Assembly: GCA_963766795.1 (NCBI GenBank)
Contig: CAVYBN010000007.1
Location: 54,389 to 118,388 of the forward strand
Source: Candidatus Parcubacteria bacterium
GTDB lineage: Bacteria; Patescibacteriota; Minisyncoccia; Phycocordibacterales; PALSA-1337
Length of the DNA: 64,000 bases
Direction: 5' to 3'
Shown: piece by piece, positions 6,201 through 64,000 of the stretch
Position numbering within the stretch: position 1 is the first letter of the stretch
Layout: every line of letters starts with the position of its first letter
Made by a program: the position numbers and the translations under genes
The notes under the pieces: generated by a model
The model's input: only the letters and a program-made list of their open reading frames with translations
What the model was told of the DNA's origin: nothing
Database searches by the model: none

Positions 6201-9014
6201 GTCGGGACCGACTTGGAGACAGCGGATGGTCAAGCCGGTGAGGGCCGAGAGGACGACATTGCCGTTGAAAGTCGCGGAGCCTCCGAAGACATTCGCGCCG
6301 TTGAAAGTCTGGTCTCCGGTGAAGGTGTTGCTGGAAGATGTCTTGGAAATGGTCGATGAGCCGTTCGCGTAGTAGTCAGCCGAAGTCGTCGAGAATGAAA
6401 GGAAGCCCAAGCTCGAAGTGCCGGTCAAAGCGTAAGTGCCGTCCGATTGGCCCATCAACAGGTTGCCGTACGAGGGAGCGCTCGAAAGGCCCGTGCCGCC
6501 GTTGCCGACGGCCAGCGTGCCAGTGGTTGAAGACAGCGGAATCGAGAGATTCAAAGACGATGTCGCGATCGAAGAAACTGCTCCATTGGTCCCGAATAGG
6601 AGGCCGTTCAGAGCGCCGATGGTCAAGGCCGTGGTCGAAGCATACGGCAGTTGCGAAGCCGCGGAAGAAGTCGCGATGAAATTCGAAGCCGTCTGGTTGC
6701 CGGCGACGAAGGAATTGCCTTCGACGGAGAACAGCGCGAATGGCGAGGTCGTGCCGACGCCGACGTTACCGTTGGAGAGGATCGAGAGCACGGTCTGCGA
6801 AGCTTGGCCGAAGAATTCGGCGATCTTGCCGGCGCCGCTCTGCAAAACATTGATAAATGTTCCTGAAGATGAAGTGGCGTTCTGCGCGTCGCTCCGCAGG
6901 AATTGCGATGAATTCAGACCACTCAAAGCCTGCGCGTTGGTTGCCTCGAAGGCCGCCGGCACCGCGCCGAGGATCTTGCGCGGCGACATCTCGCCGTCCC
7001 ATGTCGGAGTCGGAGCGTTGGCCGTGCCGCCGATGTCGACGCCCAGATACAGCGTCTGATTGAAGTTGACGCCCGTGAATGGCGTGGTCGAGCCCAGCAT
7101 CAGGCTGAAAAGCCCGCTCTTCAAGGCCGCGCCTTGGCCATTCGAGACCAGATCATCCTCGGTCCAGATCGGCGCGCCGCCGGACAGCGAGGCGTAGAGC
7201 TTGAACTCGACGTTGTACGAGCCGTCGGCGACCGTGTTGCCCGAAGCGTCCATGAGCTTGCCCTGGTAGTTGATCTCGGGATTGAAAGCGGCGTAAGCGA
7301 TGGGCGAGAACAGCTTGAAGACGAGCGCGAAGATGACGAGAGAGGCGACGACGATGGGGATCGATTGGGAACGATCGCCAACACCGCCGCTCTCTTTCGG
7401 CGACAACACTGTTCCGTCCGAGACCGCTCTGCCTGTCGGCAGAATTGCGGCTCGGTCCGGAACAGTGTTCTCGCCTGCGAGAGCGGCTGACGAAACATTC
7501 TTATCAGTATCTTCGACCATAGCTCTTTGCGCATCGAAAGCCGAGAATTTGGTCGTCTTCCAAGCTGGCGCTTCGGCAATGACAGGATCTTTTTGGATTT
7601 CGGATTTCGGATTTGTCTCGTCCGCCGGCTGGCGGATCGGATTTCGGATTTCGGATTTGTCCGATTCTTGAATCTTGAATCTTGAATCTTGAATCTTCTC
7701 TCCGTTGCCTCCCTTGCCATTCTTGCGCCGCCTCCAGACGATGATCGCGACGATGATCGCGAGCAAGATGGCCGCCAAGATCCAGAGATAATTCCCGAAC
7801 GCGAAACCGGCTGGTAGAGAATTCAGAGCCGCGGCGGTGAAGGCGTCGAGCGAGCCGGAGAGCTGCTTCAAGCCTTGATTCTGATAGTCGAGGATGCTGA
7901 CCGTCAGAGGATATGAGCCGGACCTGCCCAAAGGCCCCATGGTCGCCTCGTAGTAGCTCTTGTCGGCGTTCGGCCGCAGGAGAAAGATGAAAGCTTTGGA
8001 ATGGTCGGCCGGATCGGAGAGGCCGAGCGCGATCGTCTTCAGGATCTGCGGCACGCGGTCGTAGCGCAGGCGGACGGTCAAGTCCTCGGTGCCATTCACG
8101 GAAACGGTGCCGCCGGCTCCGACCGGGATGAGCTTGCCGTCCTGGATGAATTGGAAGTCGAGCAATGACAAGCTGGCGATCATCGGGTCGACGTGCGCGG
8201 CTTGCTGGACATTGACGAAAGGATTCGAGGAGGTGGCCGCGGCGATCTCGCCCGGAAGCGGCATGCGCGCGAATGCCAAGGCGCCGGAAGAGACTATGCC
8301 GTTCATGCCCTCCGCGAAAATGGCGTAATAGTAGGTCACGCCAGCCTTGGCCGTGGCGTCGAAGTATGACTGCTCGGTTCCTTGATATATCGTTTCTCCG
8401 TCAGATTCATTCCCGGGGAAGAACGAGCTCGAACGGATGATCCTGACTTGGATGAAACGGAAGTCGGTCGGGTTCGTCCATAAGAGAGCGATGCCGTTCA
8501 CGAGCGGGGCGGCCGTGAAGCCGGACGGGTTCGGCAAAGGCAGAGTGCCGCCGCTCGAAGAACCGCCCGCGGCTTGTTTATTATTGGCTGGCGGCGTGAC
8601 TGGCGGCACGACCGGAGCGGGCGGAACCGTTTGCTGATAGCCGGCATGTACGGTTTGATCGGCGCTCGCGGAATATCCGGTGGCGACTTCGCCGGCGGTG
8701 TCTTCCGCGCTATAGCTCGCCGACTTCGAATTTCCGCCGCCGAAGTTCACGCTCTCTTCCTGCATCGAATAATGAGGGCTCTGCATCACTTGGGCGTGGG
8801 CGAGAGGAAGAGATGAGAGATTAGAGATAAGAGATAAGAGAAAAGCAAAACTCAAAAGGGAAAAGGCAAGTATTTTGTCACCCCAGCGAAGGCTGGGGTC
8901 CAGGGTATTGCCACCGACGGAATTGGTCGAACCTTGGATTCCCGCCTTCGCGGGAATGACAATAGAAATCGCGGGAATGACAAGCTTTTGAATTATGAGT
9001 TTCGAAATCTTCAT
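3216..9014 (-). CDS. Giant repetitive Gly/Ser/Thr/Asn-rich cell-surface protein. It has a signal peptide and a ~440-aa N-terminal domain ending in a 'LPAGF'-TM-RRRK segment. A linker made of repeat-element insertions follows, then a second signal-peptide-like TM, then a long beta-rich repeat region with recurring GTGLSS.PSYGNLL.G and N(V/I)GIGTTSP..(K)L.V modules. The called C-terminal ~300 codons are out of frame.
   Basis: A 5.8 kb ORF. Translation shows hydrophobic signal-like segments at the N-terminus and again at ~residue 560 (IPIVVASLVIFALVFKLFSPIAYA). Tail-fibre or adhesin-like repeat motifs occur many times. Two segments (SFQRHHLGNLSLRPAAAPVFQYAKLRP... and the final ...RPLRFHLQRHISHSFF...RRHQ) are Arg/His-rich nonsense, typical of wrong-frame read-through in GC-rich DNA. 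Confidence 0.6.
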   Translation of the reverse strand: MKISKLIIQKLVIPAISIVIPAKAGIQGSTNSVGGNTLDPSLRWGDKILAFSLLSFAFLLSLISNLSSLPLAHAQVMQSPHYSMQEESVNFGGGNSKSASYSAEDTAGEVATGYSASADQTVHAGYQQTVPPAPVVPPVTPPANNKQAAGGSSSGGTLPLPNPSGFTAAPLVNGIALLWTNPTDFRFIQVRIIRSSSFFPGNESDGETIYQGTEQSYFDATAKAGVTYYYAIFAEGMNGIVSSGALAFARMPLPGEIAAATSSNPFVNVQQAAHVDPMIASLSLLDFQFIQDGKLIPVGAGGTVSVNGTEDLTVRLRYDRVPQILKTIALGLSDPADHSKAFIFLLRPNADKSYYEATMGPLGRSGSYPLTVSILDYQNQGLKQLSGSLDAFTAAALNSLPAGFAFGNYLWILAAILLAIIVAIIVWRRRKNGKGGNGEKIQDSRFKIQESDKSEIRNPIRQPADETNPKSEIQKDPVIAEAPAWKTTKFSAFDAQRAMVEDTDKNVSSAALAGENTVPDRAAILPTGRAVSDGTVLSPKESGGVGDRSQSIPIVVASLVIFALVFKLFSPIAYAAFNPEINYQGKLMDASGNTVADGSYNVEFKLYASLSGGAPIWTEDDLVSNGQGAALKSGLFSLMLGSTTPFTGVNFNQTLYLGVDIGGTANAPTPTWDGEMSPRKILGAVPAAFEATNAQALSGLNSSQFLRSDAQNATSSSGTFINVLQSGAGKIAEFFGQASQTVLSILSNGNVGVGTTSPFALFSVEGNSFVAGNQTASNFIATSSAASQLPYASTTALTIGALNGLLFGTNGAVSSIATSSLNLSIPLSSTTGTLAVGNGGTGLSSAPSYGNLLMGQSDGTYALTGTSSLGFLSFSTTSADYYANGSSTISKTSSSNTFTGDQTFNGANVFGGSATFNGNVVLSALTGLTIRCLQVGPDGTVAANPLGCGGAAAAAGSWSTTTSQVSGELVNYSNNTTDVIAIGNTSTTTAKFWFDPNAQKSFLSGLATLGNLLVSGSSTLQNFTFTNATGTAATTTSFFAATASSTNLYATNGNIGTLTVNGASALNSVSANSLTVSGATNLASSLNGILFGTNGAVSSMATSSLGIIAFSTTSANYFVNSSSTIAAPAGLGTSLGTGGLIQWNGSNWTSVSTTTLGLLGASSVQTGVAGQAAFYGANGANVFSTSTLVFGTTTKDANNIGIGTTSPYAKLSVQNNSSAVPQLDLAYDNTDYLAAVVNSVGALTLNLFGSTGGLMINNPQPASVATQYGTNATTSLLVTGATGGNTSYSTFGNFPIAGIGGGIILNGGLGGVSTNAGSGQINGGKGGPVNILGGTGGSENVVTGSGFNNGGWGGTVTIQGGNGGNASNNAAFNIAGGGGDLSLLGGNAGSASGGVGEEGSEFGGAVYIEGGYGPDGSGNVVLAASSTSLGSQGNVVFGDYQSLFDTTLGFLGIATTSPFMPLTVEGNGYFSGSLTAGDITATGTLTVGGLAKFPNLLSTGSSTLQNFTFVNATGTAATTTDFFAATASSTNLYATNGNIGTLTVNGASALNSVSANSLTLSSSLNGPLQANAGVVSATTSVGVLYGGTGLTSIASSSLLIGNAVGGYTQYATSSLGILSATTSMTLAQTYGTAQTGNIWLGTSTGATNNGLTTGIYITNTGSSFSFQRHHLGNLSLRPAAAPVFQYAKLRPASPRQRFEWILHCSATSSLGLLGSSTVSSLTNNYLPKWNSNGTFTNSLIFDNGTNVGIGSSTPWAALSIGVPNWSATAPMFAISSSTSNGTTTPFEVNNNGSVVIGSLTGPLQAISGVVSATTSIGVLYGGTGQTSFGQGWLGINNSGAFISSTSPTVNYIVSTSTTATSTFAGRPLRFHLQRHISHSFFNFRKRTQLDRRLLFDRWHLSPIRHHFAHDRADIRNFPDRQHLARHFDRRHQ
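8877..8981. repeat. Family-A palindromic element, inserted in frame at the 5' end of the giant gene (peptide VIPAKAGIQGSTNSVGGNTLDPSLRWGDK). It has an extra partial arm at 8971-8981.
   Basis: gtcaccccagcgaaggctggggtccag ... ttggattcccgccttcgcgggaatgac. The inverted arms match the consensus of the other copies. Confidence 0.8.
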
Positions 9015-9019
9015 AATCG

Positions 9020-10438
9020 TTAATTGACCGCGCTCGTCGAAGTCGCCTTGACCGGCACCAAGACGTACAGGAAGTCGTGCCCGGCCACCGTCCTGAAGAC
9101 CGGTTGGATCACGCCGGTGGTCCCGTCCGGATTCGGCCTTACCGTGACCGCGTCGGAGAACGAATTCTGGATGCTCTTCTCGAGCTTGACCTGATCCGAC
9201 GGCGAACCGGAGGGCGGCAGGATGACCACGCCTCCGTGCTCGGCCGTGACCTTGCCTTGTTCTCCGGGCGGGATCACCGACGAGGCGGGCGGCTCTTCCG
9301 ATCCCACGCCGACATCCGCGCTCTCGTCGACGCCGCCATTCAAAACAACCGTAGCGTTCGCATTCGCACTCGAACCGGCGCTCGAAGAAGCATTCACCGC
9401 ATCCGTGCCGCCGACCGCCAGGCTATTCGAAGGCCGGCTGGAATCATTGCTTGCGATCAGTGACAAGGCGTTCGAAGCCAAGCTGGAAGTCCCCGAGAAC
9501 ATCGAGCTCCAAGCCGAGGCTAGCGTCTCGCCGGCTCCGGCGGCGATATTCTCAATCGATTGGAGCGCGATCTGCGGCAAAGACTGGATGGCCGAAGCGG
9601 CTTCCGCGACATTGGCGGCCGAAGCATTTTCCAAAGACGAGACGCTCGAAGAAATGTCTGCGAACGTTTGAGACGGATGCAGACGGGAATTCCCCATAGC
9701 CGTCATCGCGACCAAGAAGATGACCGCCGCCAATGTCGGCGAGAGCAAAGCATACGGAGAACGGACCGCTGATGCGAATCTTTCTGTCGGAGTCGGAAGA
9801 TACGTCCACTTCCAAGCCGGCGGAGGTTCGACGGCCGGCAATTGTCGATTGATGATCGACGCCTGGGCGCGAGCATCGAGCTTGGAGATCGTGACGCGAG
9901 CGACATCGGCTAGCGTTTCGCGGATAGGGATTGAAGATTGCAGATTGAAGATTGAAGATTCACGATTGACGAATGTTTTGTCATTCCCGTGCAAACGGGA
10001 ATCCAGTGTTTTTTCTCTGATGTCAATCGTTTCACCCTGGATCCCCGCTTTCGCGGGGATGACAGAATTACTTGAAATGAGTGATTTCTGATCTTGAATT
10101 TCGGATTTCGGATTTGTCTCGGATTTCGAATTTCTGATTTCGGATTTTGTGGTCATTTCTGACATCGCAGGCTTGAGGTCAATGATCGTCGAAATTCCCT
10201 CATCAGTGAGGCCGAAAACATCCATCTTTTTGAAGATCGTTTGGTTCGGTTTTATCGACTCTTTTTTGTGACGCAAAATTGAGTTCTCGTCGACGTACCA
10301 GAAGCGTCCGACCATTCTGCAGATCAATTTTCCAGCGCGACAAAGCTGACCGACGTAGTCGTTTGAATATCCGGCTATCTCGGCAGCTCGGCGAGACGAG
10401 ATGTATTGCCTGCCTTCGATAATTAGTGAGTCGCTCAT
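9020..10438 (-). CDS. Membrane protein with an N-terminal excisionase/MerR-like HTH domain, a single TM helix (LAAVIFLVAMTAMG) and a Ser/Ala-rich extracytoplasmic tail. Its stop lies 5 bp before the giant-gene start.
   Basis: The N-terminus (RRAAEIAGYSNDYVGQLCRAGKLICRMVGRFWYV) resembles the small HTH protein at 10938..11189. Hydrophobic stretch at ~residue 225. The C-terminal 230 aa are low-complexity S/A/N-rich. The intergenic distance to 9014 is only 5 bp. Confidence 0.55.
   Translation of the reverse strand: MSDSLIIEGRQYISSRRAAEIAGYSNDYVGQLCRAGKLICRMVGRFWYVDENSILRHKKESIKPNQTIFKKMDVFGLTDEGISTIIDLKPAMSEMTTKSEIRNSKSETNPKSEIQDQKSLISSNSVIPAKAGIQGETIDIREKTLDSRLHGNDKTFVNRESSIFNLQSSIPIRETLADVARVTISKLDARAQASIINRQLPAVEPPPAWKWTYLPTPTERFASAVRSPYALLSPTLAAVIFLVAMTAMGNSRLHPSQTFADISSSVSSLENASAANVAEAASAIQSLPQIALQSIENIAAGAGETLASAWSSMFSGTSSLASNALSLIASNDSSRPSNSLAVGGTDAVNASSSAGSSANANATVVLNGGVDESADVGVGSEEPPASSVIPPGEQGKVTAEHGGVVILPPSGSPSDQVKLEKSIQNSFSDAVTVRPNPDGTTGVIQPVFRTVAGHDFLYVLVPVKATSTSAVN
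9980..10063. repeat. Family-A palindromic element, in frame in the HTH-membrane gene (VIPAKAGIQGETIDIREKTLDSRLHGNDK)
   Basis: gtcattcccgtgcaaacgggaatccag ... ctggatccccgctttcgcggggatgac. Confidence 0.85.
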
Positions 10439-11355: not shown

Positions 11356-12997
11356 ATGAAATATATACCGGTGATCGGTCTGGAAATACACGCCGAGCTC
11401 AAGACAGCCTCGAAGATGTTCTGCTCCTGCAAGAATGACCCTGACGAGGAAAGGCCTAATTCCAATATCTGCCCCATTTGCCTAGGCCATCCGGGCACTT
11501 TGCCGGTATTGAATCGCGAGGCCATAAAGCACGTGCTAAAGGTCGGTGTGGCAGTCAACGGCAAATTGGCCGACTTCACCGAGTGGGACCGCAAGAACTA
11601 CTTTTATCCGGACATCCCCAAGGGCTATCAGATCAGCCAGTACAAGTATCCGCTTGGTCTCCGACGGCGAGCTTGCCGGCGTCGCGCTCGAGCGCATCCA
11701 CCTCGAAGAAGACACCGCGCGCTCCACTCATGACATCGAGGTCGGACCTCGACACGGAATACCCAGAGGTCCGACCTCTCTAGTCGACTTCAACCGATCG
11801 GGAGTCCCTCTCTTGGAGCTCGTGACCAAGCCTGTCATCCACGACTCTGCGACCGCAGTCAGGTTCGCGAAGGAACTGCAATTGCTCCTGCGCTCTCTCG
11901 GCGCCGGCGACGCGAACATGGAGAAGGGCGAGATGAGAGTCGAAGCGAACGTGTCAGTTAGTAAGATTGATGAAGAGATAGGAGATAAGAGATTAGAGAT
12001 TAGAGAACGGCGGAGTTCGAAGGTGTCTGTCATTCCCGCTGATTCTTTTGTCATCCCCGCGAAAGCGGGGATCCAGAGTCAAACTATTGAAGGTGGTAAT
12101 ACACTGGATTCCCGCGTGCGCGGGAATGACAAAATTAAACTTGGAACGAAAACAGAAGTTAAGAACTTGAATTCATTCAGGTCGGTGGAGAAAGCGATCG
12201 AGTACGAGATCGAACGTCAGACTTCCCTCTTGGAGAAGGGCGAGGCTGTCGTCCAAGAGACTCGAGGATGGGACGACTCGCTCGGCGAAACTTATCCTCA
12301 ACGATCGAAAGAGAGCTCGCACGACTATCGCTACTTCCCTGACCCGGACATACCCAAGATGAAGCTCTCGGAGATCCCGGAGTTCTCGTCCGCTGAATTG
12401 AAGAAGTCCTTGCCAGAGCTGCCGTGGGTTAAACGAGACCGATTCAAGAAAGATCTCGGCATGACCGACAAAGAGGTTTCGGTGTTCGTTGAGAATGATT
12501 TTCTTTCGGCATATTTCGATCAGACGATTAAAGCCACCGGCACAGATAAGAAGATCGTTCGTCTCGTGATCAATTATCTTCTGACCGATTACGTCGCACT
12601 TTTAAAAGGCTCGACTGATTTGAATGGACAACGGCACCAGTTCCATTTGAATCCTCTGTACATCGAGCCGAAACATTTCGCCGAGCTCATTTCAATGGTC
12701 GCCTCCAATGAGATCTCATCCAGAGGCGCCAAAGACTTGCTTGCGATCCTCTTAAAGGAAAAGGATACTTCACCCAAAGTTCTTGCCAAGAAGCACAACC
12801 TCCTCCAAAAGAGCGACGCCGCAGACATCTCGCCGATCATCGAAAAAGTCATCGCAGACAACGCCAAAGTCGCCGCCGAGTTCAAAGCTGGCAAGACTGC
12901 ATCGCTCCAATTCCTGATCGGCCAGGCCATGAAAGCCGCCAAGGGTTCGGCTAATCCGGAGGTAGTCAAGAAGCTTCTCATTGAAAAGCTTGGCTGA
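11356..12997 (+). CDS. gatB: Asp-tRNA(Asn)/Glu-tRNA(Gln) amidotransferase subunit B. It is split by an apparent +1 frameshift near 11655-11665 and carries at least three in-frame repeat insertions.
   Basis: The N-terminus MKYIPVIGLEIHAELKTASKMFCSC...NICPICLGHPGTLPVLN and the later IHLEEDT...YRYFPDPDIP are canonical GatB. The frame-1 ORF 11356..11733 and the frame-2 ORF 11546..12997 overlap, and the conserved sequence continues across them (..QISQYKYPL | VSDGELAGVALERIHLEEDTA). Inserted peptides are HDIEVGPRHGIPRGPTSL, SKIDEEIGDKRLEIRERR and VIPAKAGIQSQTIEGGNTLDSRVRGNDK. Confidence 0.85.
12029..12129. repeat. Family-A palindromic element (with an extra half-arm at 12029-12045), in frame in gatB
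   Basis: gtcattcccgctgattcttttgtcatccccgcgaaagcggggatccag ... ctggattcccgcgtgcgcgggaatgac. Confidence 0.85.
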
Positions 12998-14957: not shown

Positions 14958-18032
<3,075 letters not shown>

Positions 18033-18096: not shown

Positions 18097-19302
18097 TCAA
18101 TTCACCCAATCGACTTCGCCTTCGATATCGAGATCGGTCTTGTCCTTGACGCGCCGCATGAGCTCTTGCGAAAGGCTGACGACCTCCGCGGCGGAAGCGC
18201 CCGGCACGGCAACTAGGACCAAGGCTTGCTTCTCATAGACGCAAGCCTTGCCCATCTTGAGCCCTTTGACGTCGCAAACCTTATCGAGGACCCAGCCTAG
18301 CGAGACCTTGACTCGGCCGTCCGGCTCCGGAAAGCCCGGCAGGTCCGGATATTTTGCCTTCAAGAACTTGAATCTATCGGCGTCAATGATCGGATTCTTG
18401 AAGAACGAGCCGGCCGTGCCCCAGAGCTTCCAATCCGGCAATTTGCGGGAGCGCACGTCGATGACGGCCTCGCGTACCTGTTTAAGGGTAGGACGCATTG
18501 ATTGATGAGCTGGATTCGCCGACTGCGCCGTTGGATTGATTGCCGGTTGTTTGGCAACCGATCGACCTTTAATAGTTTTTTTGCCAACGAAATAGTCCTG
18601 CAAGTCTTTGTAGTCAATGTTGACATTGCCATTTTTTGAAAGACTGAAATCGACGCGCGTGATGATGTAGCGGCCTCGCTCGCGCTTGAAGAGGCTGTCG
18701 CGGTAAGCAAATCCGCAATCCGCATTCGAAAGCTCGACGAACTCCATCGAGCGCGTGTCCAGCGCGCGCACGCTCGAGATCGTATGAGCCGCTTCCGCGC
18801 CGTACGCTCCGATGTTCTGCACCGGCGTCGCTCCGACCGTGCCGGGAATGGCGGAGAGATTCTCGATGCCGTATAATCCCCGCTCTACAGCCCAGTCCAC
18901 GAGGCCGTCCCATAATTCACCGGCACCGACGGTTATTGTAACTGTGTTGTCATTCCCGCGCATGCGGGAATCCAGTGTATCACTGCTTTCGATTTCAGCA
19001 GTCTGACCCTGGATCCCCGCTTTCGCGGGGATGACAGTTTGTCCCTTGATCCCTGCTATCTCCATCTTAATGACTAATCCTTGGAATCCCTTATCGGAGA
19101 TAAGAACATTCGATCCGCCGCCGAGGACGAATATCGGCAGCTCTTTCTTCTTGGCGAAGCTGACGGCTTCGATCAATTCATCTTCATTCGAAGCACGACA
19201 AAAAAACGCGGCGGAGCCGCCGATCTTGAAAGTGGTGAATTCAGCAAGTTGGATGTTTTCTTTGATAAGCACATCAGTTAAATTCCAAATTCCAGAGATC
19301 AA
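18097..19302 (-). CDS. murB: UDP-N-acetylenolpyruvoylglucosamine reductase MurB, with an in-frame Family-A insertion
   Basis: FAD-binding N-terminus (FTTFKIGGSAAFFCRASNEDELIEAVSFAKKKELPIFVLGGGSNVL) and GTVGATPVQNIGAYG. The insertion VIPAKAGIQGQTAEIESSDTLDSRMRGNDN splits a conserved block. Confidence 0.85.
   Translation of the reverse strand: MISGIWNLTDVLIKENIQLAEFTTFKIGGSAAFFCRASNEDELIEAVSFAKKKELPIFVLGGGSNVLISDKGFQGLVIKMEIAGIKGQTVIPAKAGIQGQTAEIESSDTLDSRMRGNDNTVTITVGAGELWDGLVDWAVERGLYGIENLSAIPGTVGATPVQNIGAYGAEAAHTISSVRALDTRSMEFVELSNADCGFAYRDSLFKRERGRYIITRVDFSLSKNGNVNIDYKDLQDYFVGKKTIKGRSVAKQPAINPTAQSANPAHQSMRPTLKQVREAVIDVRSRKLPDWKLWGTAGSFFKNPIIDADRFKFLKAKYPDLPGFPEPDGRVKVSLGWVLDKVCDVKGLKMGKACVYEKQALVLVAVPGASAAEVVSLSQELMRRVKDKTDLDIEGEVDWVN
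18949..19035. repeat. Family-A palindromic element, in frame in murB
   Basis: gtcattcccgcgcatgcgggaatccag ... ctggatccccgctttcgcggggatgac. Confidence 0.9.
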
Positions 19303-19654: not shown

Positions 19655-19900
19655 ACTCCACCGCTTCCTCTCGGCGACAACAGTGTTCCGTCCGAGACCG
19701 CTCTGCCTTTCGACAGAATTGCGGCTCGGTCCGGAACACTGTTCTCGCCTGCGGAAGCGGTTCATGCAAGGCAGAAGCGGAACATGGGATGAAGCGACAT
19801 TGCGAAGGCGCGAAAGGCGCCGAGCACAAGAAATCGTCCCGATGGACATCGGGACGATTTCGGTCGCTGAACCCCATGTTCCGCTTCTGCCTCAAATTAT
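19655..19900. repeat. Composite Family-C palindromic elements. The left half is homologous to 7386-7500 (inside the giant gene). The right half is homologous to 22110-22262.
   Basis: gacaacagtgttccgtccgagaccgctctgcc...ggctcggtccggaacactgttctc (a hairpin), then ggcagaagcggaacatggg...cccatgttccgcttctgcc (a hairpin). Matching copies are listed in the call. Confidence 0.65.
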
Positions 19901-22109: not shown

Positions 22110-22262
22110 GAATATAGCATGGGCATGAGGCAGAAGCAAAACATGGGGATTCGGCGACCGAAATCGCGCCCTGCTGGGCGCGTTTCTCGTGCTCGGCGCC
22201 TTCGCGCCTCCGCAATGCCGCCTCACCCCATGTTTTGCTTCTGCCTCCAAGCTTCAATTCCT
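22110..22262. repeat. Family-C palindromic element immediately upstream of the ligase-like gene
   Basis: ggcagaagcaaaacatgggg...gcgccgagcac...ccccatgttttgcttctgcc. Its partner is at 19760-19900 on the other side of the same gene. Confidence 0.65.
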
Positions 22263-23254: not shown

Positions 23255-23400
23255 TAAAAATCCCAAATCCCAGAAATCAAACTCCAGAAAAGCTTCAGAA
23301 TTCAAATTCCAAAAAGTCTGCTTTTTGATTATTGTAATTTGAATTTTGAGATTTCTCTGGAACTTGTGATTTGAATTTTGAGATTTTATTAGGAATTAGG
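23255..23400. repeat. Family-E AT-rich palindromic intergenic element (second copy)
   Basis: aaaatcccaaatcccagaaatcaaactccagaaaagcttcagaattcaaattccaaaaagtctgctttttgattattgtaatttgaattttgagatttctctggaacttgtgatttgaattttgag. Confidence 0.65.
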
Positions 23401-47283: not shown

Positions 47284-48492
47284 TCAATGTTGCATGCCGA
47301 TCGCCTCAGTAATGGCTTCAGCTACCCTTTCTGATTCCGGCTCAACAATGATGGCTCCGACTTCACCGGCGACTCCGACATCCGTTGAAACGATCTTGCA
47401 TCCGGCGGCTTGAGCTTCGACTAATGACATTCCATAGCCTTCGAATAAGGAAACATTTAAGAACAAGTCGGCGGTCTTGTAATACGAGATCAGCGTGGTT
47501 TTGTCGGCCCAATCTTCGAAGACGACCGACTCACCGGCTTGTGGCTCTCCGCCAGCTGGCGGACCACCATTTGAGCCACGATCATCGCCAGTTCCAATCA
47601 ATCCCAATTGTTTTGCGATCCCTCTGAGCTTCGCCTCCTGCGAACCGCGGCCGACAATGACAAGCCCGGCCTTCGGAATCTTCTTAACGACTTCCTTGAA
47701 AGCCTCGATCGCCATGCCGATGTTCTTCTCTGGTTCCAACCGCGAAGCCATCAAAATGATCTTTTTGAATTGCGGATATTTCTTGCGCAGATCAGCGTTT
47801 GAATCGATTGGTATACTCTTAATCGAATCAGTGTCGACAGCGATCGGCCTGACTGCGATCTTAGTCGAATCGATCCCGACGGTTTCAACCAGATATTTTT
47901 TGATCCTATCTGAAACGACGCGGATAGAATCAGCTTTGCGCACATACGACAGCGCCAGAGCTTTGCGGATCTTATTGGTTAGATTGAACGGATAATAAGG
48001 GCTGCCGATGTCCTCATGGATCTGGATCTCCAATGGCAAGTTGAATCGCTTCTTTAGAGAAACTCCGGCCATGGCCGTCAACGAAGCGTCTTGGCAAGTC
48101 ATCTCCGTGATGCCGCGCTTCTCGATGATGAATCTGCCGAGGCTGATCGCGTCGAAAGGATACAATGATTTGAATCGAGAGCGCGTGGAGTATGCCCAGC
48201 AGTTGGGAGAAATAACGGATTCAGAATTTATGATTTTCAAACTGTCACCCCCGCGAAGGCGGGGGTCCAGTGTATTACCACTGACATAATCGTTGTGACC
48301 CTGGATTCCCGCTTTCGCGGGAATGACACAAAAATTTCGTCTTGCAAAGACGATGATGTGAACTTCACCCCAATCTTTGGCATATGCGATCTGTCGCGCA
48401 CGCACAGAACTGCCCTCTTCAAAGATAGACCGATCAGTCGAGATCATCAGCAATCTTCGATTGGTCTTGGTTGTGGACTGATTGGGAGGCAT
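47284..48492 (-). CDS. GT4-family glycosyltransferase with an in-frame Family-A insertion
   Basis: LFEGYGMSLVEAQAAGCKIVSTDVG. Insertion VIPAKAGIQGHNDYVSGNTLDPRLRGGDS. Confidence 0.85.
   Translation of the reverse strand: MPPNQSTTKTNRRLLMISTDRSIFEEGSSVRARQIAYAKDWGEVHIIVFARRNFCVIPAKAGIQGHNDYVSGNTLDPRLRGGDSLKIINSESVISPNCWAYSTRSRFKSLYPFDAISLGRFIIEKRGITEMTCQDASLTAMAGVSLKKRFNLPLEIQIHEDIGSPYYPFNLTNKIRKALALSYVRKADSIRVVSDRIKKYLVETVGIDSTKIAVRPIAVDTDSIKSIPIDSNADLRKKYPQFKKIILMASRLEPEKNIGMAIEAFKEVVKKIPKAGLVIVGRGSQEAKLRGIAKQLGLIGTGDDRGSNGGPPAGGEPQAGESVVFEDWADKTTLISYYKTADLFLNVSLFEGYGMSLVEAQAAGCKIVSTDVGVAGEVGAIIVEPESERVAEAITEAIGMQH
48244..48327. repeat. Family-A palindromic element, in frame in the GT4 gene
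   Basis: gtcacccccgcgaaggcgggggtccag ... ctggattcccgctttcgcgggaatgac. Confidence 0.85.
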
Positions 48493-48621
48493 GATAATCA
48501 GGTAATTTTTAATTTTTCAATTTTTAATTTTTAAATAATGATCAAATGATCGAATTTCCAATGAAAAATTAGGACATTAAAAATTATTTAAAAATTCAAA
48601 AATTAATAATTCAAAAATTGT

Positions 48622-50849: not shown

Positions 50850-50942
50850 AGTACCAATAGTAAATAGTAAAGAGAAAATAGTAAATAGCTGGAAATTTTC
50901 TGATCTTTTTTACTATTTACTATTTCATATTTACTATCTCTT

Positions 50943-51368: not shown

Positions 51369-51779
51369 TCACAGATTGGCTGGGAGCGGCGAGTGGGCCG
51401 GTTTTAAATCGACTGTCGGAACCGAGGCTTTCGAATCGGCCATAATCGGCTTCTGTGCAATCACTTGATTCAAGACAACAAACGGCTTGTGAGTCACACC
51501 TGCATTCGAGGCGGGCGAGGCAGAGCTTCCGAAGAGCCGAGGACTGTCCGAGCGAGCAGAGATCGAAGCCTTTAAAGAAGGGTTTGCGTCAGCCGCGCCT
51601 TCTTTGTCATCCCCGCGAAAGCGGGGATCCAGTGTCTTTGTTGTTTGACCCTGGATTCCCGCTTGCGCCTTCGCTTCGCTTCGGCTTGCGGGAATGACAA
51701 CAACATCCTTCGCGGGACTGCTTCGAATCTCTGCCTTCTTCACCGTCGGCTCATGGAACTTGACTATCCCCTCCTCCAC
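51369..51779 (-). CDS. Pro/Ala/Ser-rich low-complexity protein containing a Family-A element in frame. It overlaps the VirD4-like gene end by 29 nt.
   Basis: VIPASRSEAKAQAGIQGQTTKTLDPRFRGDDK, then S/P/A-rich sequence. Confidence 0.3.
   Translation of the reverse strand: MEEGIVKFHEPTVKKAEIRSSPAKDVVVIPASRSEAKAQAGIQGQTTKTLDPRFRGDDKEGAADANPSLKASISARSDSPRLFGSSASPASNAGVTHKPFVVLNQVIAQKPIMADSKASVPTVDLKPAHSPLPANL
51606..51698. repeat. Family-A palindromic element (a variant with a ~25-bp insert in the right arm)
   Basis: gtcatccccgcgaaagcggggatccag ... ctggattcccgcttgcgccttcgcttcgcttcggcttgcgggaatgac. Confidence 0.8.
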
Positions 51780-56976: not shown

Positions 56977-57076
56977 GAGCGAGAGAAACATGCCCGTGAA
57001 GGACTTTGCCAACAAAACGAATACCAGGAATATTGGCACGGGGGCACCGTCCTGAATGGGCATGTTTCTCTCGCTC
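56977..57076. repeat. Family-D MITE-like element with 19-bp perfect terminal inverted repeats, intergenic
   Basis: gagcgagagaaacatgccc ... gggcatgtttctctcgctc. Confidence 0.8.
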
Positions 57077-57122: not shown

Positions 57123-58490
57123 ATGGAACAGCCGAAACAGACCGTCATATATGTGACCCGCGAGATCGAGCGAGCCATGGGAATGGCCCCGAACGAGCAT
57201 TACCGCATCGTCGCCAACCGCACGCCTTACGGCGAAACCATTAAAAAGCAATACCCCGATTTCGTCACGCTCGTCGAAAGCCCGACGCCCAAGCTCCTTG
57301 GCACCGGCGAACTTCTGGACCATCCAAAAACTGCCGCTGTCTATGAAGAGATCGCTAATTCTTTTATCACCCCCGCGAAGGCAACGGTCCAGGATCGATC
57401 TGCTGATTCTCCTGTCATCCCCGCGAAAGCGGGGATCCAGGGTCAGACCACTGGAAATGGTAATACACTGGATTCCCGTTTTCACGGGAATGACAAAACG
57501 ATTCCCAATTTCCTCGTCTTCAAGAACACCGCGCGCATCGAGCCGATTGCGCACGCGCACGGCTGGAAGCTCGTGAATCCTCTGGCGTCGCTCTCGGAGC
57601 AAGTCGAGAACAAGATCAGCCAAGTCGCGTGGCTCGAAAATTCAGCCGAATACTATCTGCCGAAGCATCAGGTAGGACCGCTCAAGAGGATGACTTGGAC
57701 CGGCGAGCCCTTCGTCCTCCAATGGGGCCACGGTCACACCGGCGACGGCACCATCCTCGTCAATTCGCAGGCAGAGCTCGACAAGTGGAAGGCGCGATTC
57801 CCCTATCGCATGACGCGCGTGAGCGCTCTCGTGAGCGGCCCTTCATTCACGGTCAACGCACTGGTCGCCGGCGACGATGTCCTCATCGGCAACCCGAGCT
57901 ATCAGATCACCGGCATGGCGCCGTTCACCGACAGCCGCTTCGCCACCGTCGGCAATGACTGGAGCGCGGTCCGCAACATCCTCTCCGAAGCCGAGCTGCG
58001 TTCGATCGAGAATCTGGCCAAAGACATCGGCATGCGTCTCAAAGACAGCGGTTGGCGCGGCCTCTATGGCGTGGACATCATGCGCGACGACGAACGCGGC
58101 CGTATCTTCCTCATCGAAGTCAATGCCCGCCAGCCCGCTTCCACGCCTTTCGAGTCATTCTTACAGGAATCAGAGCGCGTCAAGGGAGCTGCCGGTTTGA
58201 CAATATTTGAAGCTCATTTGAAGGCCTTGCTCGGCGAAGCCATCACCGAACCTTTGATCAAGATCAAAGACGGTTCGCAGATCATCCAGCGCGTCACCAA
58301 TGCCGTCAGGTCAGTGCCTGCCAACGCAGCCAGTGCTCTTGAATCAGCCGGCTATCAAGTCGTTTCTTACGCCAACACTGAACTGAACGCCGACCTCCTG
58401 CGCATTCAGTCCATGAATGGCATCATGGCTGGACATGATGTGTTCAATGAGAAAGGAAAGGAGATCGTCAAGATCGTTTCAAGTAAATAA
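57123..58490 (+). CDS. ATP-grasp family ligase with an in-frame Family-A insertion near the N-terminus
   Basis: RIFLIEVNARQP(A) is the ATP-grasp C-terminal catalytic motif. Insertion VIPAKAGIQGQTTGNGNTLDSRFHGNDK. The start is reassigned from 57006 to the ATG at 57123 because the upstream codons lie in the Family-D element. Confidence 0.65.
   Translation: MEQPKQTVIYVTREIERAMGMAPNEHYRIVANRTPYGETIKKQYPDFVTLVESPTPKLLGTGELLDHPKTAAVYEEIANSFITPAKATVQDRSADSPVIPAKAGIQGQTTGNGNTLDSRFHGNDKTIPNFLVFKNTARIEPIAHAHGWKLVNPLASLSEQVENKISQVAWLENSAEYYLPKHQVGPLKRMTWTGEPFVLQWGHGHTGDGTILVNSQAELDKWKARFPYRMTRVSALVSGPSFTVNALVAGDDVLIGNPSYQITGMAPFTDSRFATVGNDWSAVRNILSEAELRSIENLAKDIGMRLKDSGWRGLYGVDIMRDDERGRIFLIEVNARQPASTPFESFLQESERVKGAAGLTIFEAHLKALLGEAITEPLIKIKDGSQIIQRVTNAVRSVPANAASALESAGYQVVSYANTELNADLLRIQSMNGIMAGHDVFNEKGKEIVKIVSSK
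57368..57494. repeat. Family-A palindromic element with an extra partial left arm (57368-57395)
   Basis: cacccccgcgaaggcaacggtccagg...gtcatccccgcgaaagcggggatccag ... ctggattcccgttttcacgggaatgac. Confidence 0.85.
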
Positions 58491-58559
58491 AGCCATTCTT
58501 CATTCGCAGATTCGCCATTCGTAGCATTCGCATTGGATTCGTAGATTAGCATTATATAT

Positions 58560-59393: not shown

Positions 59394-59414
59394 CATCGTG
59401 GTATTGTTTGAGGA

Positions 59415-60542
59415 ATGATAAGCATCCTCCAAGGCACGGCCGACCTGGCCTATATCCTCGGTTTTGCGCTGGTCGGCGCCGTCATAGCTTTCCTGTGGGC
59501 GCCGCTCCTTACCAAAGCACTGTACCGATTCAAGGTCATCAAAGCTCCCAAGACCGAGCTTGTGGCCCTCGGTTCGCAGGCATACAAAGCCAACACGCCG
59601 GTCATGGGCGGCTTGCTCGTCATCATCACGGTCGCGCTCGTCACCTACCTCTTCAACTGGTCGCGCTCATTCACGTACGTGCCGATCGGCGTGATGCTCA
59701 TCTCCGCGGCTTTGGGCGCCGTCGACGACCTCATGAATGTCTACGGCGTCGAACGGCGTTCGCGCAAATTCGGCCATGTCCTGACGCTTATCCGAGTCCA
59801 TCATGACTGGAAGATGCGCGTCTGGTACGCGCTCACCCTGCCCTGGACGGCTTTCAAGCGCCTGTCGGTCTGGTTCGGCTCGCGGCCCGGCAAGGGCGTC
59901 TTCGTGCATGAGAAGCTCATCCTGCAATTCATCGCCGGAGCCATCACCGCCTGGTGGGTCTACGAGAAGCTCGGGCCGGCCTGGCACTTCATCTACTTCT
60001 CGTTCGGCTACTCCGTCAATGCCGGCTGGCTGATCGTGCCGATCATGGTCCTGGTCGTGATGTTCACCGCTAATGCCGTCAATATCGCCGATGGCATGGA
60101 CGGCCTCTCCGGCGGCATGCTCATCACCACCTTCAGCGCGCTCACATTCCTGTCATGGATCAACGGCTTCGGCGAGATCGCCATCCTGAATGCCACCACA
60201 GTGGGCGCTCTGGCGGCTTACACCTATTTCAACATCAAGCCGGCGCGCTTCATGATGGGCGACATTGGCTCACTGGGCCTTGGTGCGCTCCTGGCTGTGA
60301 ATGCCCTAGCCATCGGCGAGCTAGGCTCGCTCTTCTTCTTGGGCTTCATGTTCTATATCGAGGCCTTTTCGGTCATCATCCAGGTCGGCTCGCGCTACGC
60401 ATTCGGCCGCAAGGTCTTCCGCATGGCGCCTCTTCATCACCACTTCGAGCTCAAAGGCTGGAGCGAGGAGAAGACCGTCATGCGCTTCTGGGTCATCCAT
60501 TTCATCTTCGTGGTCTTCGGATTCTGGTTGGCGCTCCACTAA
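59415..60542 (+). CDS. mraY: Phospho-N-acetylmuramoyl-pentapeptide transferase MraY
   Basis: NTPVMGGLLVI, AVDDLMNV, NAVNIADGMDGL, FMGDIGSLGLGALLA and PLHHHFEL conserved MraY blocks. Ten TM helices. Confidence 0.85.
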   Translation: MISILQGTADLAYILGFALVGAVIAFLWAPLLTKALYRFKVIKAPKTELVALGSQAYKANTPVMGGLLVIITVALVTYLFNWSRSFTYVPIGVMLISAALGAVDDLMNVYGVERRSRKFGHVLTLIRVHHDWKMRVWYALTLPWTAFKRLSVWFGSRPGKGVFVHEKLILQFIAGAITAWWVYEKLGPAWHFIYFSFGYSVNAGWLIVPIMVLVVMFTANAVNIADGMDGLSGGMLITTFSALTFLSWINGFGEIAILNATTVGALAAYTYFNIKPARFMMGDIGSLGLGALLAVNALAIGELGSLFFLGFMFYIEAFSVIIQVGSRYAFGRKVFRMAPLHHHFELKGWSEEKTVMRFWVIHFIFVVFGFWLALH

Positions 60543-60643
60543 AAGTATAAAGGTATAAAAGAAGAAAGGTATAAAGGTATAATCGCAACATCGCTTCTCG
60601 CATACTTTTATACTTAAATACCTTAATACTTTTATACTTATTC

Positions 60644-61327: not shown

Positions 61328-61330
61328 ATC

Positions 61331-62761: not shown

Positions 62762-62768
62762 TTCCTTT

Positions 62769-62852
62769 GTCATTCCCGCGAAAGCGGGAATCCAGGGTAC
62801 TACCACAAACGCCCGTAGTCATACACTGGACCCCCGCTTTCGCGGGGGTGAC
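62769..62852. repeat. Family-A palindromic element, intergenic (convergent gene ends)
   Basis: gtcattcccgcgaaagcgggaatccag ... ctggacccccgctttcgcgggggtgac. Confidence 0.85.
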
Positions 62853-62860
62853 AAAGTTGT

Positions 62861-63058: not shown

Positions 63059-63097
63059 TGCCTTTCAATAATAGCGAAAATACGATAGCATGGCAAT

Positions 63098-64000
63098 ATG
63101 AATAAGTCAGCAAAAGACGCTTCGGATGGTGCGAAGGCCGCTCCTATTACGCCGCTTGAAGCCTATCCCAAGCTGGCAAAAGCCATAGGCGTCAATCAAT
63201 TGTTCTTCAAGCGCGAGGACCTGCATCCTTACGGCTCTCACAAAGGCCGCTCCATTCCGGTCATGATCGACCATTATTTGAAGGCCGGTGAGCGCCGATT
63301 CGCCATCTCTTCGTCTGGAAACGCGGCATTGGCGGCGGCACTTTATGTTGCTGTCATTCCCGCAAAAGCGGGAATCCAGGGTCTAGCTGCTGAAAACAAT
63401 CCGATCAGCCTCGATATCTTCATCGGCCAGCATGCCGCGCCGCACAAAGCGCAACGATTGAAAGAACTCGCTGACGAGCATATCCGCGTCCTCATCAAAG
63501 AGCGGCCATTGCAAGCCTTGACGCAGGCCGTGAATGAGAGCGCGCGGAGTTTGAGGCAATCGACTGACGATCTGGCTTTGATCGGTTATGAATCTTTGGC
63601 ACAGGAATTAGCGGCAGCAACAGCACGGAGGTCGGACCTCCGTAGGTCGGACCTAAGTATCTTCATCGGCACTTCTTCCGGCACCACGGCTCAAGCTTTG
63701 GCTGCATATTTCTTAAAAGAAAAGCTCCCCATCCAAATCCACATCGTCCAGACTTCTTCATGCCATCCTTTGGCGGACGCATTCGAATCGTACGATGGAC
63801 CAGACGAAGCTTCACTGGCTGATGCCATCGTTGACATGACCGCGCGGCGCAAAGAAGCTCTGATCCCGCTCATCAAAAAGAGCGGCGGCCGTGCCTGGGT
63901 CGCAACTAATGACGACATCAAAGCCGCACAGGAACTGACGCTCAAGAATACTGGCTTGGAGATATCCACTAACAGCGCGTTATCAGTAGCTGGAGCGATG
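63098..64000 (+). CDS. Fold-type-II PLP-dependent enzyme (threonine synthase/dehydratase-like), partial: it runs off the window end. It contains a Family-A half-element in frame.
   Basis: FFKREDLHPYGSHKGRS (PLP-lysine context) and SSSGNAALAAAL. The frame is open from the ATG at 63098 to the window edge. Insertion VIPAKAGIQG at 63353-63380. Confidence 0.5.
   Translation, partial: MNKSAKDASDGAKAAPITPLEAYPKLAKAIGVNQLFFKREDLHPYGSHKGRSIPVMIDHYLKAGERRFAISSSGNAALAAALYVAVIPAKAGIQGLAAENNPISLDIFIGQHAAPHKAQRLKELADEHIRVLIKERPLQALTQAVNESARSLRQSTDDLALIGYESLAQELAAATARRSDLRRSDLSIFIGTSSGTTAQALAAYFLKEKLPIQIHIVQTSSCHPLADAFESYDGPDEASLADAIVDMTARRKEALIPLIKKSGGRAWVATNDDIKAAQELTLKNTGLEISTNSALSVAGAM

What the first reader, a model, noticed from the sequence alone, without database searches (positions are those of the whole stretch)
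8877..63380. An ~85-100 bp palindromic element inserted in frame into at least eight protein-coding genes, including secA (twice), murB and gatB
Eleven copies of one inverted-repeat element (arms GTCATTCCCGCGAAAGCGGGAATCCAG / CTGGATTCCCGCTTTCGCGGGAATGAC around a variable ~25-35 bp core) occur in this 64 kb. Nine lie inside ORFs and keep the reading frame. Each adds a 28-35 aa peptide of the form VIPAKAGIQG-x(8-12)-TLDSR(L/F/M)(H/R)GND(K/N). Host genes include the essential secA, murB and gatB, plus a GT4 glycosyltransferase, an ATP-grasp ligase, the giant surface protein, the HTH-membrane protein and a PLP enzyme. In-frame palindromic insertions into essential genes are known from Rickettsia palindromic elements, but this family and the density seen here would be unusual. 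The element always codes in the same orientation and frame, which suggests selection on the encoded peptide, not neutral drift.
Basis: seen in the sequence. Interest (0 to 1): 0.8.

Follow-up and report, generated by a model that had tools for sequence, protein, structure and literature searches.

The report
In-frame hairpin repeats in CPR genes
A small hairpin-pair DNA repeat known from Neisseria (dRS3/NTS) and Rickettsia (RPE-6) sits in frame inside essential genes of an ultra-small Patescibacteria genome, adding about 28 disordered residues to surface loops; this is a known kind of element in a new host.

Summary
The window holds 20 copies of a 27-nt hairpin arm (0 expected by chance). They form ten inverted pairs of 81-93 bp plus one solo arm. 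Ten of the 11 loci lie inside ORFs, always read as VIPAKAGIQ...LDSR.RGND.

The family is not new. The arm meets every defining feature of CGTC-1 REPs (dRS3 in Neisseria, RPE-6 in Rickettsia). It also matches the NTS/SRM motif that Ssn GIY-YIG single-strand nucleases recognise. The exact 27-mer occurs in more than 20 bacterial phyla and in viral contigs.

The host is a Paceibacteria (CPR) bacterium. Orthologues of SecA and MurB lack the inserts. The inserts fall in loops that an AlphaFold model predicts as disordered.

All 15 changed stem pairs are compensated within an arm, while pairing between the two arms is no better than shuffled controls. The constraint is therefore on the small DNA hairpin, not on the peptide. 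Frame and orientation bias fit a filter against disruptive translations.

No ssn or RAYT gene lies in the window, so the mobilising enzyme is inferred, not shown.

Verdict: a new member of a known kind, moderately interesting because almost all copies are intragenic and sit in essential genes.

The parts
8877..8981 (-). Hairpin pair (8877-8960) in the N-terminal region (aa 19-46) of the 1932-aa surface protein. In the sense strand it is preceded by a 21-nt extension (8961-8981): a truncated arm GTCATTCCCGC plus a 10-nt linker. Peptide: VIPAISI-VIPAKAGIQGSTNSVGGNTLDPSLRWGD.
9980..10063 (-). Hairpin pair, 84 bp, in frame at aa 126-153 of the 472-aa protein (ORF 9020-10438).
12029..12130 (+). Hairpin pair (12050-12130, 81 bp) in gatB, in the loop between 3h0l_B residues 201 and 206. 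It is preceded by the same kind of 21-nt truncated-arm extension (12029-12049).
15555..15638 (-). Hairpin pair, 84 bp, in secA variable site 2 (aa 799-826, wing/scaffold domain).
17298..17381 (-). Hairpin pair, 84 bp, with both arms identical to the consensus, in secA variable site 1 (aa 218-245, inside the DEAD-like motor domain). It is the closest relative of the copy at 15555.
18949..19035 (-). Hairpin pair, 87 bp, in murB (aa 90-118). It lies in a loop that is 5-7 aa long in two Paceibacteria orthologues and about 9 aa in PDB 4jay.
48244..48327 (-). Hairpin pair, 84 bp, in the GT4 glycosyltransferase (aa 56-83).
51606..51698 (-). Hairpin pair, 93 bp, in ORF 51369-51779 (no family match). 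The sense 5' arm has a 25-nt loop in place of GAAA, an extra 21 nt that keeps the frame.
57414..57494 (+). Hairpin pair, 81 bp, in the ATP-grasp enzyme (aa 137-163).
62769..62852 (+). The only intergenic pair, 84 bp. It starts 7 nt after the stop of the MurC-like gene and lies between convergent genes. An independent short-read contig (L120) breaks here.
63353..63379 (+). Solo arm with no partner arm, read in frame as VIPAKAGIQ inside the PALP-domain enzyme that runs off the window end.

Best explanation
The elements are inverted pairs (REPIN-like dimers) of a CGTC-1-type REP hairpin. This is the same motif as Neisseria dRS3/NTS and Rickettsia RPE-6.

Each arm has a TGTC tag, an 8-bp stem (ATTCCCGC/GCGGGAAT), a 4-nt loop and a CCA tail. 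The arm-core-arm unit is copied as a whole.

Inferred mechanism: the unit is a non-autonomous element. It is moved or maintained in trans by an enzyme that reads the arm as a single-stranded DNA hairpin. The candidates are an Ssn-family GIY-YIG nuclease or a RAYT-type HUH transposase.

The host is a gene-dense Paceibacteria genome, with about 89% of the window under ORFs, so most landing sites are coding. Only some copies survive:
- those whose length is a multiple of 3;
- those that avoid the stop-containing frame;
- those that land in permissive surface loops;
- those that translate into a hydrophilic, disordered peptide.

The peptide is a tolerated passenger. The conserved object is the DNA hairpin.
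For: Shown:
- Every CGTC-1 feature from PMC3733652 is met: tag, stem, loop, tail and dimer spacing.
- The SRM pattern from PMC11893778 matches 19 arms, against 0.3 expected.
- The positions that paper reports as critical for SsnA are conserved. The three bases 5' of the palindrome (GTC) are invariant in all 20 arms, and the C just after the palindrome is invariant in every arm aligned (12 elements).
- The local hairpins pair in 100% of 192 cells, with 16 doubly changed cells (0 of 500 shuffles reach this). The long arm-arm hairpin is no better than shuffles.
- Cores are homologous between copies, so the whole unit is what gets copied.
- The same 27-mer lies next to single-domain GIY-YIG genes in L043, L044, L161 and L191. 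L044 and L161 show the motif-gene-motif layout.
- The inserts are absent from the nearest SecA orthologues (79, 72 and 68% identity) and from MurB of two relatives.
- The inserts lie in segments with pLDDT below 50, predicted as coil, between well-modelled secondary structure.
- The reverse orientation and the other frames give Cys/Trp/hydrophobic peptides or stop codons.
- The same pair is in frame in IleRS of a Rickettsia endosymbiont. The element's peptide also occurs in a TGT enzyme elsewhere on this genome's contig, in an aaRS fragment and in a methyltransferase.
Against: - No ssn or Y1-transposase gene was found in the 64 kb, in the 8-kb loci around the motif in other Patescibacteria genomes, or in two relatives' SecA loci.
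- The rest of the 157.8-kb contig could not be fetched.
- No empty-site allele in a near-identical strain was found, so recent mobility is not demonstrated.
- No target-site duplication is visible, and the true element ends are uncertain. The flanking T at -1 and AAA at +1 to +3 are conserved and may belong to the element.
- The compensated stem variants recur in several copies. They may represent a few events in master copies rather than many independent ones.
Confidence: 0.7

Rival explanations
1. The arms are working recognition sites for an Ssn-type single-strand nuclease that the host uses to control incoming or single-stranded DNA, as shown for natural transformation in Neisseria. They sit inside genes only because this genome has almost no intergenic space. 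On this reading they are kept by selection, not just tolerated.
For: - The conserved features are exactly those that SsnA needs: GTC, the hairpin, and the C after the palindrome.
- Each strand of a pair carries one forward-oriented motif.
- In all nine intragenic pairs the sense 5' arm encodes VIPAKAGIQ; its base changes are confined to a compensated, synonymous T/A-to-C/G stem change, plus a loop base, the last arm base or a 21-nt loop expansion in two copies.
- Placement relative to coding sequence is what random placement would give: 10 of 11 copies against 89% ORF cover.
Against: - No ssn gene is in the window or near the motif in the other Patescibacteria loci examined.
- Relatives have few or no copies: one in 16.5 kb of L144 and none in 22.9 kb of L143. 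That fits a lineage-specific burst better than a conserved function.
- The tag here is TGTC, not CGTC, and no arm matches the strict NTS consensus.
Confidence: 0.15
2. One reading: the encoded 28-aa peptide is itself a selected module that adds a function to many proteins, which would explain the constant frame and orientation.
For: - Ten of ten intragenic loci use one frame, and eight of eight orientable pairs use one orientation.
- VIPAKAGIQ is invariant.
Against: - The host proteins are unrelated: translocase, cell-wall enzymes, amidotransferase, glycosyltransferase, and the n-region of a signal peptide.
- The middle of the peptide is variable.
- The stem covariation changes residues in the 3' arm.
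- The model predicts disordered coil.
- Elsewhere in public data the same DNA is mostly intergenic, or is read in other frames and called as short spurious ORFs.
Confidence: 0.05
3. The hairpins act in the mRNA, for example by pausing translation or altering stability, or they are removed after transcription so that the protein lacks the insert.
For: - The elements form strong predicted structures (z-scores from -5.8 to -12.2).
- The sense 5' arm has a GNRA-like GAAA loop.
Against: - All copies keep the frame and avoid stops, which would be unnecessary if the segment were removed.
- No Rfam family matches.
- SsnA does not bind the RNA form of the motif.
- No splicing-type signature is present.
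Confidence: 0.03
4. The segments are ancestral loop sequences of these proteins, or assembly artefacts, and not insertions.
For: Three other Paceibacteria SecA proteins carry the peptide at site 1.
Against: - The three nearest SecA relatives and two MurB orthologues lack it.
- The same DNA unit occurs in nine unrelated ORFs and once between genes.
- It is seen in independent assemblies.
Confidence: 0.02

Closest known systems
CGTC-1 REP family (Di Nocera, De Gregorio and Rocco 2013, PMC3733652), which includes Neisseria dRS3
   Same: CGTC/TGTC tag, 8-bp stem starting AT, 4-nt loop, CCA tail, inverted dimers with 20-100 bp spacers, heterodimers, and occasional intragenic dimers encoding 20-30 aa.
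   Different: - That survey found the family in five phyla and did not list Patescibacteria.
- In the genomes it surveyed most REPs are intergenic (PMC3733652). Here 10 of 11 loci are intragenic.
- Some copies here have a 21-nt truncated-arm extension or an expanded loop.
NTS / Ssn-related motif, target of SsnA GIY-YIG single-strand nucleases (PMC11893778, 2025)
   Same: - The sequence is nearly identical to CGTCATTCCCGCGMAVGCGGGAATCYRG, and the arms match the published SRM pattern.
- The positions critical for binding and cutting are invariant.
- The exact arm was found beside Ssn-like genes in other bacteria and in a viral contig.
   Different: - The tag is TGTC.
- No ssn gene is in the window.
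- That paper does not use the terms intragenic or Patescibacteria.
Rickettsia palindromic elements (RPE), especially RPE-6
   Same: - Palindromic repeats inserted in frame into essential genes, adding a loop peptide.
- CGTC-1 units in R. conorii are RPE-6 (PMC3733652).
- A Rickettsia endosymbiont carries pairs built from the same arm (one arm mismatch), in frame in IleRS.
   Different: - The host phylum differs.
- The spacers are shorter and differ in sequence (27-33 bp here, against about 60-80 bp with nested hairpins in L035).
- NCBIfam RPE models do not hit these peptides.
REPIN-RAYT systems (Bertels and Rainey; bioRxiv 10.1101/2021.07.10.451892)
   Same: - Two REPs in inverted orientation that behave as one replicating unit.
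- The Neisseria REPIN master sequence ATTCCCGCGCAGGCGGGAATC is the same hairpin.
   Different: - REPINs are extragenic and are tied to a resident RAYT gene.
- No RAYT is seen here, and the copies are intragenic.

Membership tests
CGTC-1 REP (dRS3 / RPE-6 type) | Terminal CGTC tag, often TGTC | tested here: met
   GTC is invariant in all 20 arms. The base before it is T in 10 of 10 sense 5' ends, and the mirror base after the 3' arm is A in 10 of 10.
CGTC-1 REP (dRS3 / RPE-6 type) | 8-bp stem that begins with A-T and T-A pairs | tested here: met
   The stem is ATTCCCGC/GCGGGAAT. All 192 cells pair, and all 15 changed pairs are compensated.
CGTC-1 REP (dRS3 / RPE-6 type) | 4-nt loop and an unpaired CCA tail | tested here: met
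   The 20 arms tabulated have 4-nt loops (GAAA, GCAA, GTAA, GAAG, GCAC, GCAT, AAAA), and the tail CCA(G) is invariant apart from its last base in one arm. The one exception is the sense 5' arm of copy 51606-51698, which has a 25-nt loop.
CGTC-1 REP (dRS3 / RPE-6 type) | Inverted dimers with 20-100 bp spacers | tested here: met
   There are ten pairs. Nine have spacers of 27-33 nt and copy 51606 has 18 nt. Most are heterodimers, with 3-7 differences between the two arms.
NTS / Ssn-related motif | Match to the published SRM degenerate pattern and to the NTS consensus | tested here: met
   The SRM pattern gives 19 matches, against a mean of 0.3 in simulated windows. The NTS consensus gives 6 arms at 1 mismatch, 16 at up to 3, and 0 exact because of the T-for-C tag.
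NTS / Ssn-related motif | A cognate ssn (GIY-YIG, cd10448) gene in the genome, often flanked by the motif | tested here: inconclusive
   None is in the 64-kb window by motif scan or tblastn. The rest of the genome was not obtainable. The association was reproduced in L044 and L161.
NTS / Ssn-related motif | Binding and cleavage as a single-stranded DNA hairpin | not testable with these tools
   This needs an enzyme assay.
REPIN-RAYT system | A resident RAYT (HUH Y1 transposase) gene flanked by the REP | tested here: inconclusive
   No such domain was found in the ten window ORFs of about 100-280 aa scanned with Pfam. This was neither a whole-window nor a whole-genome test.
REPIN-RAYT system | Extragenic location | tested here: not met
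   10 of 11 loci lie inside ORFs.
Rickettsia palindromic elements | Palindromic repeat inserted in frame in conserved genes, absent from orthologues | tested here: met
Rickettsia palindromic elements | Match to curated RPE protein-domain models | tested here: not met
   NCBIfam gave no hit to four element peptides at E up to 10. RPE4 did hit the Rickettsia IleRS, but at a different site. Whether an RPE-6 model exists in the library was not established.
MITE | Terminal inverted repeats plus a target-site duplication, derived from an IS | tested here: inconclusive
   Inverted arms are present. No direct duplication is seen at the flanks, and no parent IS was found.

The most novel reading that the evidence does not exclude
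In this Paceibacteria lineage, small hairpin repeats may be the main source of lineage-specific loop expansions in conserved, essential proteins. The NTS/CGTC-1 type and at least three other palindromic families would be involved. They would enter the same few permissive loops again and again, and tend to re-insert nearby. On this reading REP-type elements, classically 'extragenic', act as a steady generator of protein-length variation in CPR genomes that have almost no intergenic space. They may at the same time serve as Ssn-type recognition sites.
Probability: 0.25. Interest if true: 0.6.

Novelty: new member of a known kind. Interest (0 to 1): 0.4.

Why it matters
- It links three literatures that describe the same 27-nt hairpin under different names: dRS3/NTS, CGTC-1 REP/REPIN and RPE-6. 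It also extends the motif to Patescibacteria.
- It shows a genome in which a 'repetitive extragenic palindrome' is almost entirely intragenic, inside SecA, MurB, GatB and TGT. This gives a natural map of loops that tolerate insertions in essential proteins.
- The perfect covariation of the small hairpin, together with invariant Ssn-contact bases, makes a concrete prediction. A hairpin-reading single-strand DNA enzyme should be encoded in this genome.
- For annotation, such inserts inflate protein lengths, break short-read assemblies, and produce the recurrent VIPAKAGIQ, SFPRKRES and WIPAFAGMT spurious ORFs seen in databases.

Tried and rejected
**Searches that gave little or nothing**
- Fetching the rest of the 157.8-kb source contig failed for SecA, P0001, the giant protein and P0218. 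The MurC-like protein gave only a 4.7-kb short-read contig.
- Full-text search for the peptides found nothing.
- A protein word-index search with a 40-aa insert segment returned only 31 short hypothetical ORFs.
- A metagenome scan with a subfamily-specific 20-mer gave 22 stretches, most of which lacked the rest of the arm and look like chance matches. Only about four were CPR-type elements, too few for a frame census.

**Tests that came back negative**
- NCBIfam RPE models did not hit the peptides.
- Rfam found no family in the window.
- A GIY-YIG motif scan, tblastn with two Ssn-like proteins, and a Pfam scan of ten ORFs of about 100-280 aa found no nuclease or transposase in the window.

**Ideas rejected**
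- The long arm-arm hairpin as the conserved structure. It is the minimum-energy fold but shows no covariation.
- Orientation set by replication direction. Plus- and minus-oriented copies alternate along the window and follow the gene strand instead.
- The insert as an ancestral SecA feature.


Full report

Yes. The 27-nt arm GTCATTCCCGCGAAAGCGGGAATCCAG has 17 matches at up to 3 mismatches, against none in 100 dinucleotide shuffles. Looser settings recover 19-20 arms.

The arms form ten inverted pairs and one solo arm:
- Nine pairs lie inside ORFs: 8877-8960, 9980-10063, 12050-12130, 15555-15638, 17298-17381, 18949-19035, 48244-48327, 51606-51698 and 57414-57494.
- One pair is intergenic (62769-62852), starting 7 nt after the stop of a MurC-like gene.
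- The solo arm (63353-63379) is in frame inside a PALP-domain enzyme.

All pair lengths are multiples of 3 (81, 84, 87 or 93 bp). Every intragenic copy starts in codon phase 0 and reads VIPAKAGIQ...LDSR.RGND.

Pfam confirms SecA (two copies), MurB, GatB, a GT4 glycosyltransferase and an ATP-grasp enzyme as hosts.

Four caveats apply:
- ORF 51369-51779 has no family support.
- The giant-protein copy lies ahead of the hydrophobic segment of the signal peptide.
- The true start of the ATP-grasp gene may lie downstream of the annotated one. The copy is internal either way.
- The N-terminal ~100 codons of gatB are in another frame. One extra G near 11647 causes this, and it may be a pseudogene or an assembly error.

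**2. Host**

The nearest SecA relatives are Patescibacteria of the Paceibacteria/Parcubacteria group. Named hits include Taylorbacteria and Minisyncoccia. An identical SecA lies on a 157.8-kb NCBI/ENA contig, which could not be fetched.

**3. Are they insertions in loops?**

I aligned 120 Paceibacteria SecA proteins. They share four hypervariable sites whose lengths run from 5-23 aa at the shortest to 73-113 aa at the longest.

The window's two copies fill part of site 1 (aa 218-245) and site 2 (aa 799-826). The three nearest relatives (79, 72 and 68% identity) lack them. Four other proteins of the 120 carry this kind of peptide at site 1: three carry both halves and one only the SR.RGND half. 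The three full copies sit at different offsets in the loop.

For MurB, two Paceibacteria orthologues have 5-7 aa where the window has 34. PDB 4jay has about 9 residues there.

For GatB, the insert lies between residues 201 and 206 of 3h0l_B. The window has 57 aa there, against 4 in the solved structure.

An AlphaFold2 model of the SecA was built from the 120-sequence alignment. It gives pLDDT below 50 and coil for 212-291 and 797-845, flanked by well-modelled strands and helices.

**4. What is the element?**

It belongs to a published family, described under several names.
- PMC3733652 defines CGTC-tagged REPs. The CGTC-1 family has a CGTC tag (often TGTC), an 8-bp stem beginning A-T/T-A, a 4-nt loop, a CCA tail, and mostly inverted dimers with 20-100 bp spacers. 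The authors equate it with Neisseria dRS3 and with R. conorii RPE-6. They also report intragenic dimers encoding 20-30 aa.
- PMC11893778 defines the NTS motif, CGTCATTCCCGCGMAVGCGGGAATCYRG. SsnA, a 94-aa GIY-YIG enzyme, binds it as a single-stranded DNA hairpin and cuts a few nt upstream. The paper also gives a degenerate 'SRM' pattern found widely, including in Rickettsia and Wolbachia.
- A REPIN-RAYT study lists the same Neisseria hairpin as a REPIN.

The window's arms meet every CGTC-1 feature. The SRM pattern matches them 19 times, against 0.3 expected.

These span more than 20 phyla: Proteobacteria, Chloroflexi, Planctomycetes, Nitrospirae, Acidobacteria, Bacteroidetes, Actinobacteria, several CPR groups and a Rickettsia endosymbiont. 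It also occurs in 73 stretches of viral contigs.

Single-domain GIY-YIG genes lie next to the motif in L043, L044, L161 and L191. L044 and L161 have the motif-gene-motif layout. This independently reproduces the published association.

In the Rickettsia endosymbiont locus, a pair built from the same arm (one arm mismatch) sits in frame in IleRS.

**5. What is conserved?**

Across the 20 arms, 15 stem pairs differ from the consensus. All 15 are changed on both sides so that pairing is kept, and none is broken.

On an alignment of 12 elements, the two local hairpins pair in 100% of 192 cells, with 16 doubly changed cells. None of 500 shuffles reaches this. The alternative arm-to-arm long hairpin pairs in 91.7% of cells, which is no better than shuffles. 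The long hairpin is nevertheless the minimum-energy fold.

GTC before the stem and C after it are invariant. These are the positions reported as critical for SsnA cutting and binding.

Arms are 88% identical between copies and cores 64%. The cores are still clearly homologous, so the whole arm-core-arm unit is what has been copied.

Several compensated changes alter the peptide in the 3' arm (S to P, N to D or G). They are synonymous in the 5' arm.

The constraint is therefore on the DNA hairpin, not on the peptide.

**6. Frame and orientation**

The arm has two open frames and one with TGA stops. Ten of ten intragenic loci use the VIPAKAGIQ/LDSRFRGND frame, which has a probability of about 0.001 if the two open frames were equally tolerated.

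The core is asymmetric. All eight orientable coding pairs have the same orientation relative to the gene, although the genes lie on both strands and alternate along the window. This rules out an orientation set by replication direction.

The reverse orientation reads ...QCLSARLNRFT..., and the other open frame reads SFPRKRESR...HWIPAFAGMT. The frame actually used gives G/S/T/E/Q/N-rich peptides.

This fits a filter on translation products. A transcription-coupled insertion bias cannot be excluded.

**7. Placement**

About 89% of the window lies under ORFs. Ten of 11 loci in ORFs is therefore what unbiased placement would give.

This contrasts with the same motif in other bacteria, where 134 of 199 arms are not inside a long ORF. 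Many of the remainder are doubtful, because spurious long ORFs are common in high-GC DNA.

Relatives have far fewer copies: one in 16.5 kb of L144 and none in 22.9 kb of L143. The window's genome thus appears to have had a burst.

A profile of the nine peptides finds 3370 cluster representatives at E up to 0.001. Among the best hits, many are spurious ORFs across repeat arrays. Real hosts also appear: an aaRS anticodon-binding fragment, an MmeI-type methyltransferase, and a TGT enzyme located on the same 157.8-kb contig as this window but outside it.

**8. Mechanism and what remains inferred**

Shown: family identity, hairpin constraint, insertion into loops, and the frame and orientation bias.

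Inferred: that the units are moved or kept by a hairpin-reading single-strand DNA enzyme (Ssn-type or RAYT-type). No such gene is in the window, and the rest of the genome was out of reach.

No empty-site allele, target duplication or exact element end could be established. T at -1 and AAA at +1 to +3 are conserved and may be part of the element.

**9. Verdict**

The family, however, is already described, and in Rickettsia it is one of the RPE families. The evidence points to selection on the hairpin rather than on the peptide.

What is new is the host (Patescibacteria), the near-total intragenic placement in essential genes, the strict frame and orientation, and the recurrence of insertion at the same SecA loops by different repeat families across Paceibacteria.

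I rate it a new member of a known kind, with interest 0.4.

Noticed in passing
window 11356-11733 and 11546-12997 (junction near 11647-11662): gatB is split between two frames. The first ~100 codons (MKYIPVIGLEIHAELKT...YQISQYKYPL) are in the frame of ORF 11356-11733 and the rest are in ORF 11546-12997. One extra G in CCGCTTGGTCTCC would explain it. It could be a pseudogene, a programmed shift or an assembly error.
   Followed up: partly
window 12029-12049 and 8961-8981; protein P0218 (same contig, outside the window): Two copies are preceded, in the sense strand, by a 21-nt extension: a truncated arm (GTCATTCCCGC) plus a 10-nt T-rich linker. This gives VIPAxSx-VIPAKAGIQ. The same peptide pattern occurs in a TGT enzyme elsewhere on the contig. 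Weaker versions of the linker (TGATTCTYYT) precede the copies at 57414 and 62769. The origin is unexplained.
   Followed up: partly
window 51606-51698: The sense 5' arm has a 25-nt loop (AAGCCGAAGCGAAGCGAAGGCGCAA) in place of GAAA. This is 21 nt longer, keeps the stem intact and still keeps the reading frame.
   Followed up: partly
window 15555-15638 and 17298-17381; L143:10670-10755 and 12308-12393: The two secA copies are each other's closest relatives (core 90% identical). In a relative, an unrelated 86-nt hairpin-containing element sits 99% identical at the same two SecA loops. This suggests local re-insertion or strongly limited permissive sites.
   Followed up: partly
window 45647-45744, 56977-57076, 19769-19892, 22127-22247: Two further palindromic repeat families are present. 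Their arms are ...CGTCATGCCCATGAAGGAC / GTCCTGAATGGGCATGACG... and GAGGCAGAAGC..CATGGGG / CCCCATG..GCTTCTGCCTC. One copy (45647-45744) is in frame in a GT1 glycosyltransferase. Others lie at gene 5' ends or between genes.
   Followed up: partly
window 17769-17873, 15096-15182, 10094-10147: The other variable sites of SecA are also built from repeats. One is a 105-bp palindrome of heptamer repeats (GGTACAG... / ...CTACACC) around an A-rich core. Another is an AAATCCGAAATC-type repeat encoding KSEIQN-like peptides. The latter also occurs in the 472-aa protein.
   Followed up: no
L145-L217 (IMG/VR); L161:3005-3377: The exact 27-mer occurs in 73 stretches of predicted viral contigs. L161 carries a motif-GIY-YIG-motif cassette. 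This is a possible route for spread of the motif between phyla.
   Followed up: partly
L120 (Logan contig from ERR11593882), end of contig: An independent short-read assembly of the same strain stops 33 nt after the MurC-like stop codon, inside the intergenic element. The repeat breaks assemblies.
   Followed up: no
window 23257-23387, 48504-48616, 50856-50937, 60540-60639: AT-rich imperfect palindromes occur in several intergenic gaps. They are distinct from the GC-rich hairpin repeats.
   Followed up: no
window 51751-53031 and 51369-51779: A VirD4/TraG-type coupling-protein gene is followed, with a 29-nt overlap, by the low-complexity ORF that hosts one element. The ORF may be a frameshifted C-terminal tail rather than a separate gene.
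   Followed up: no
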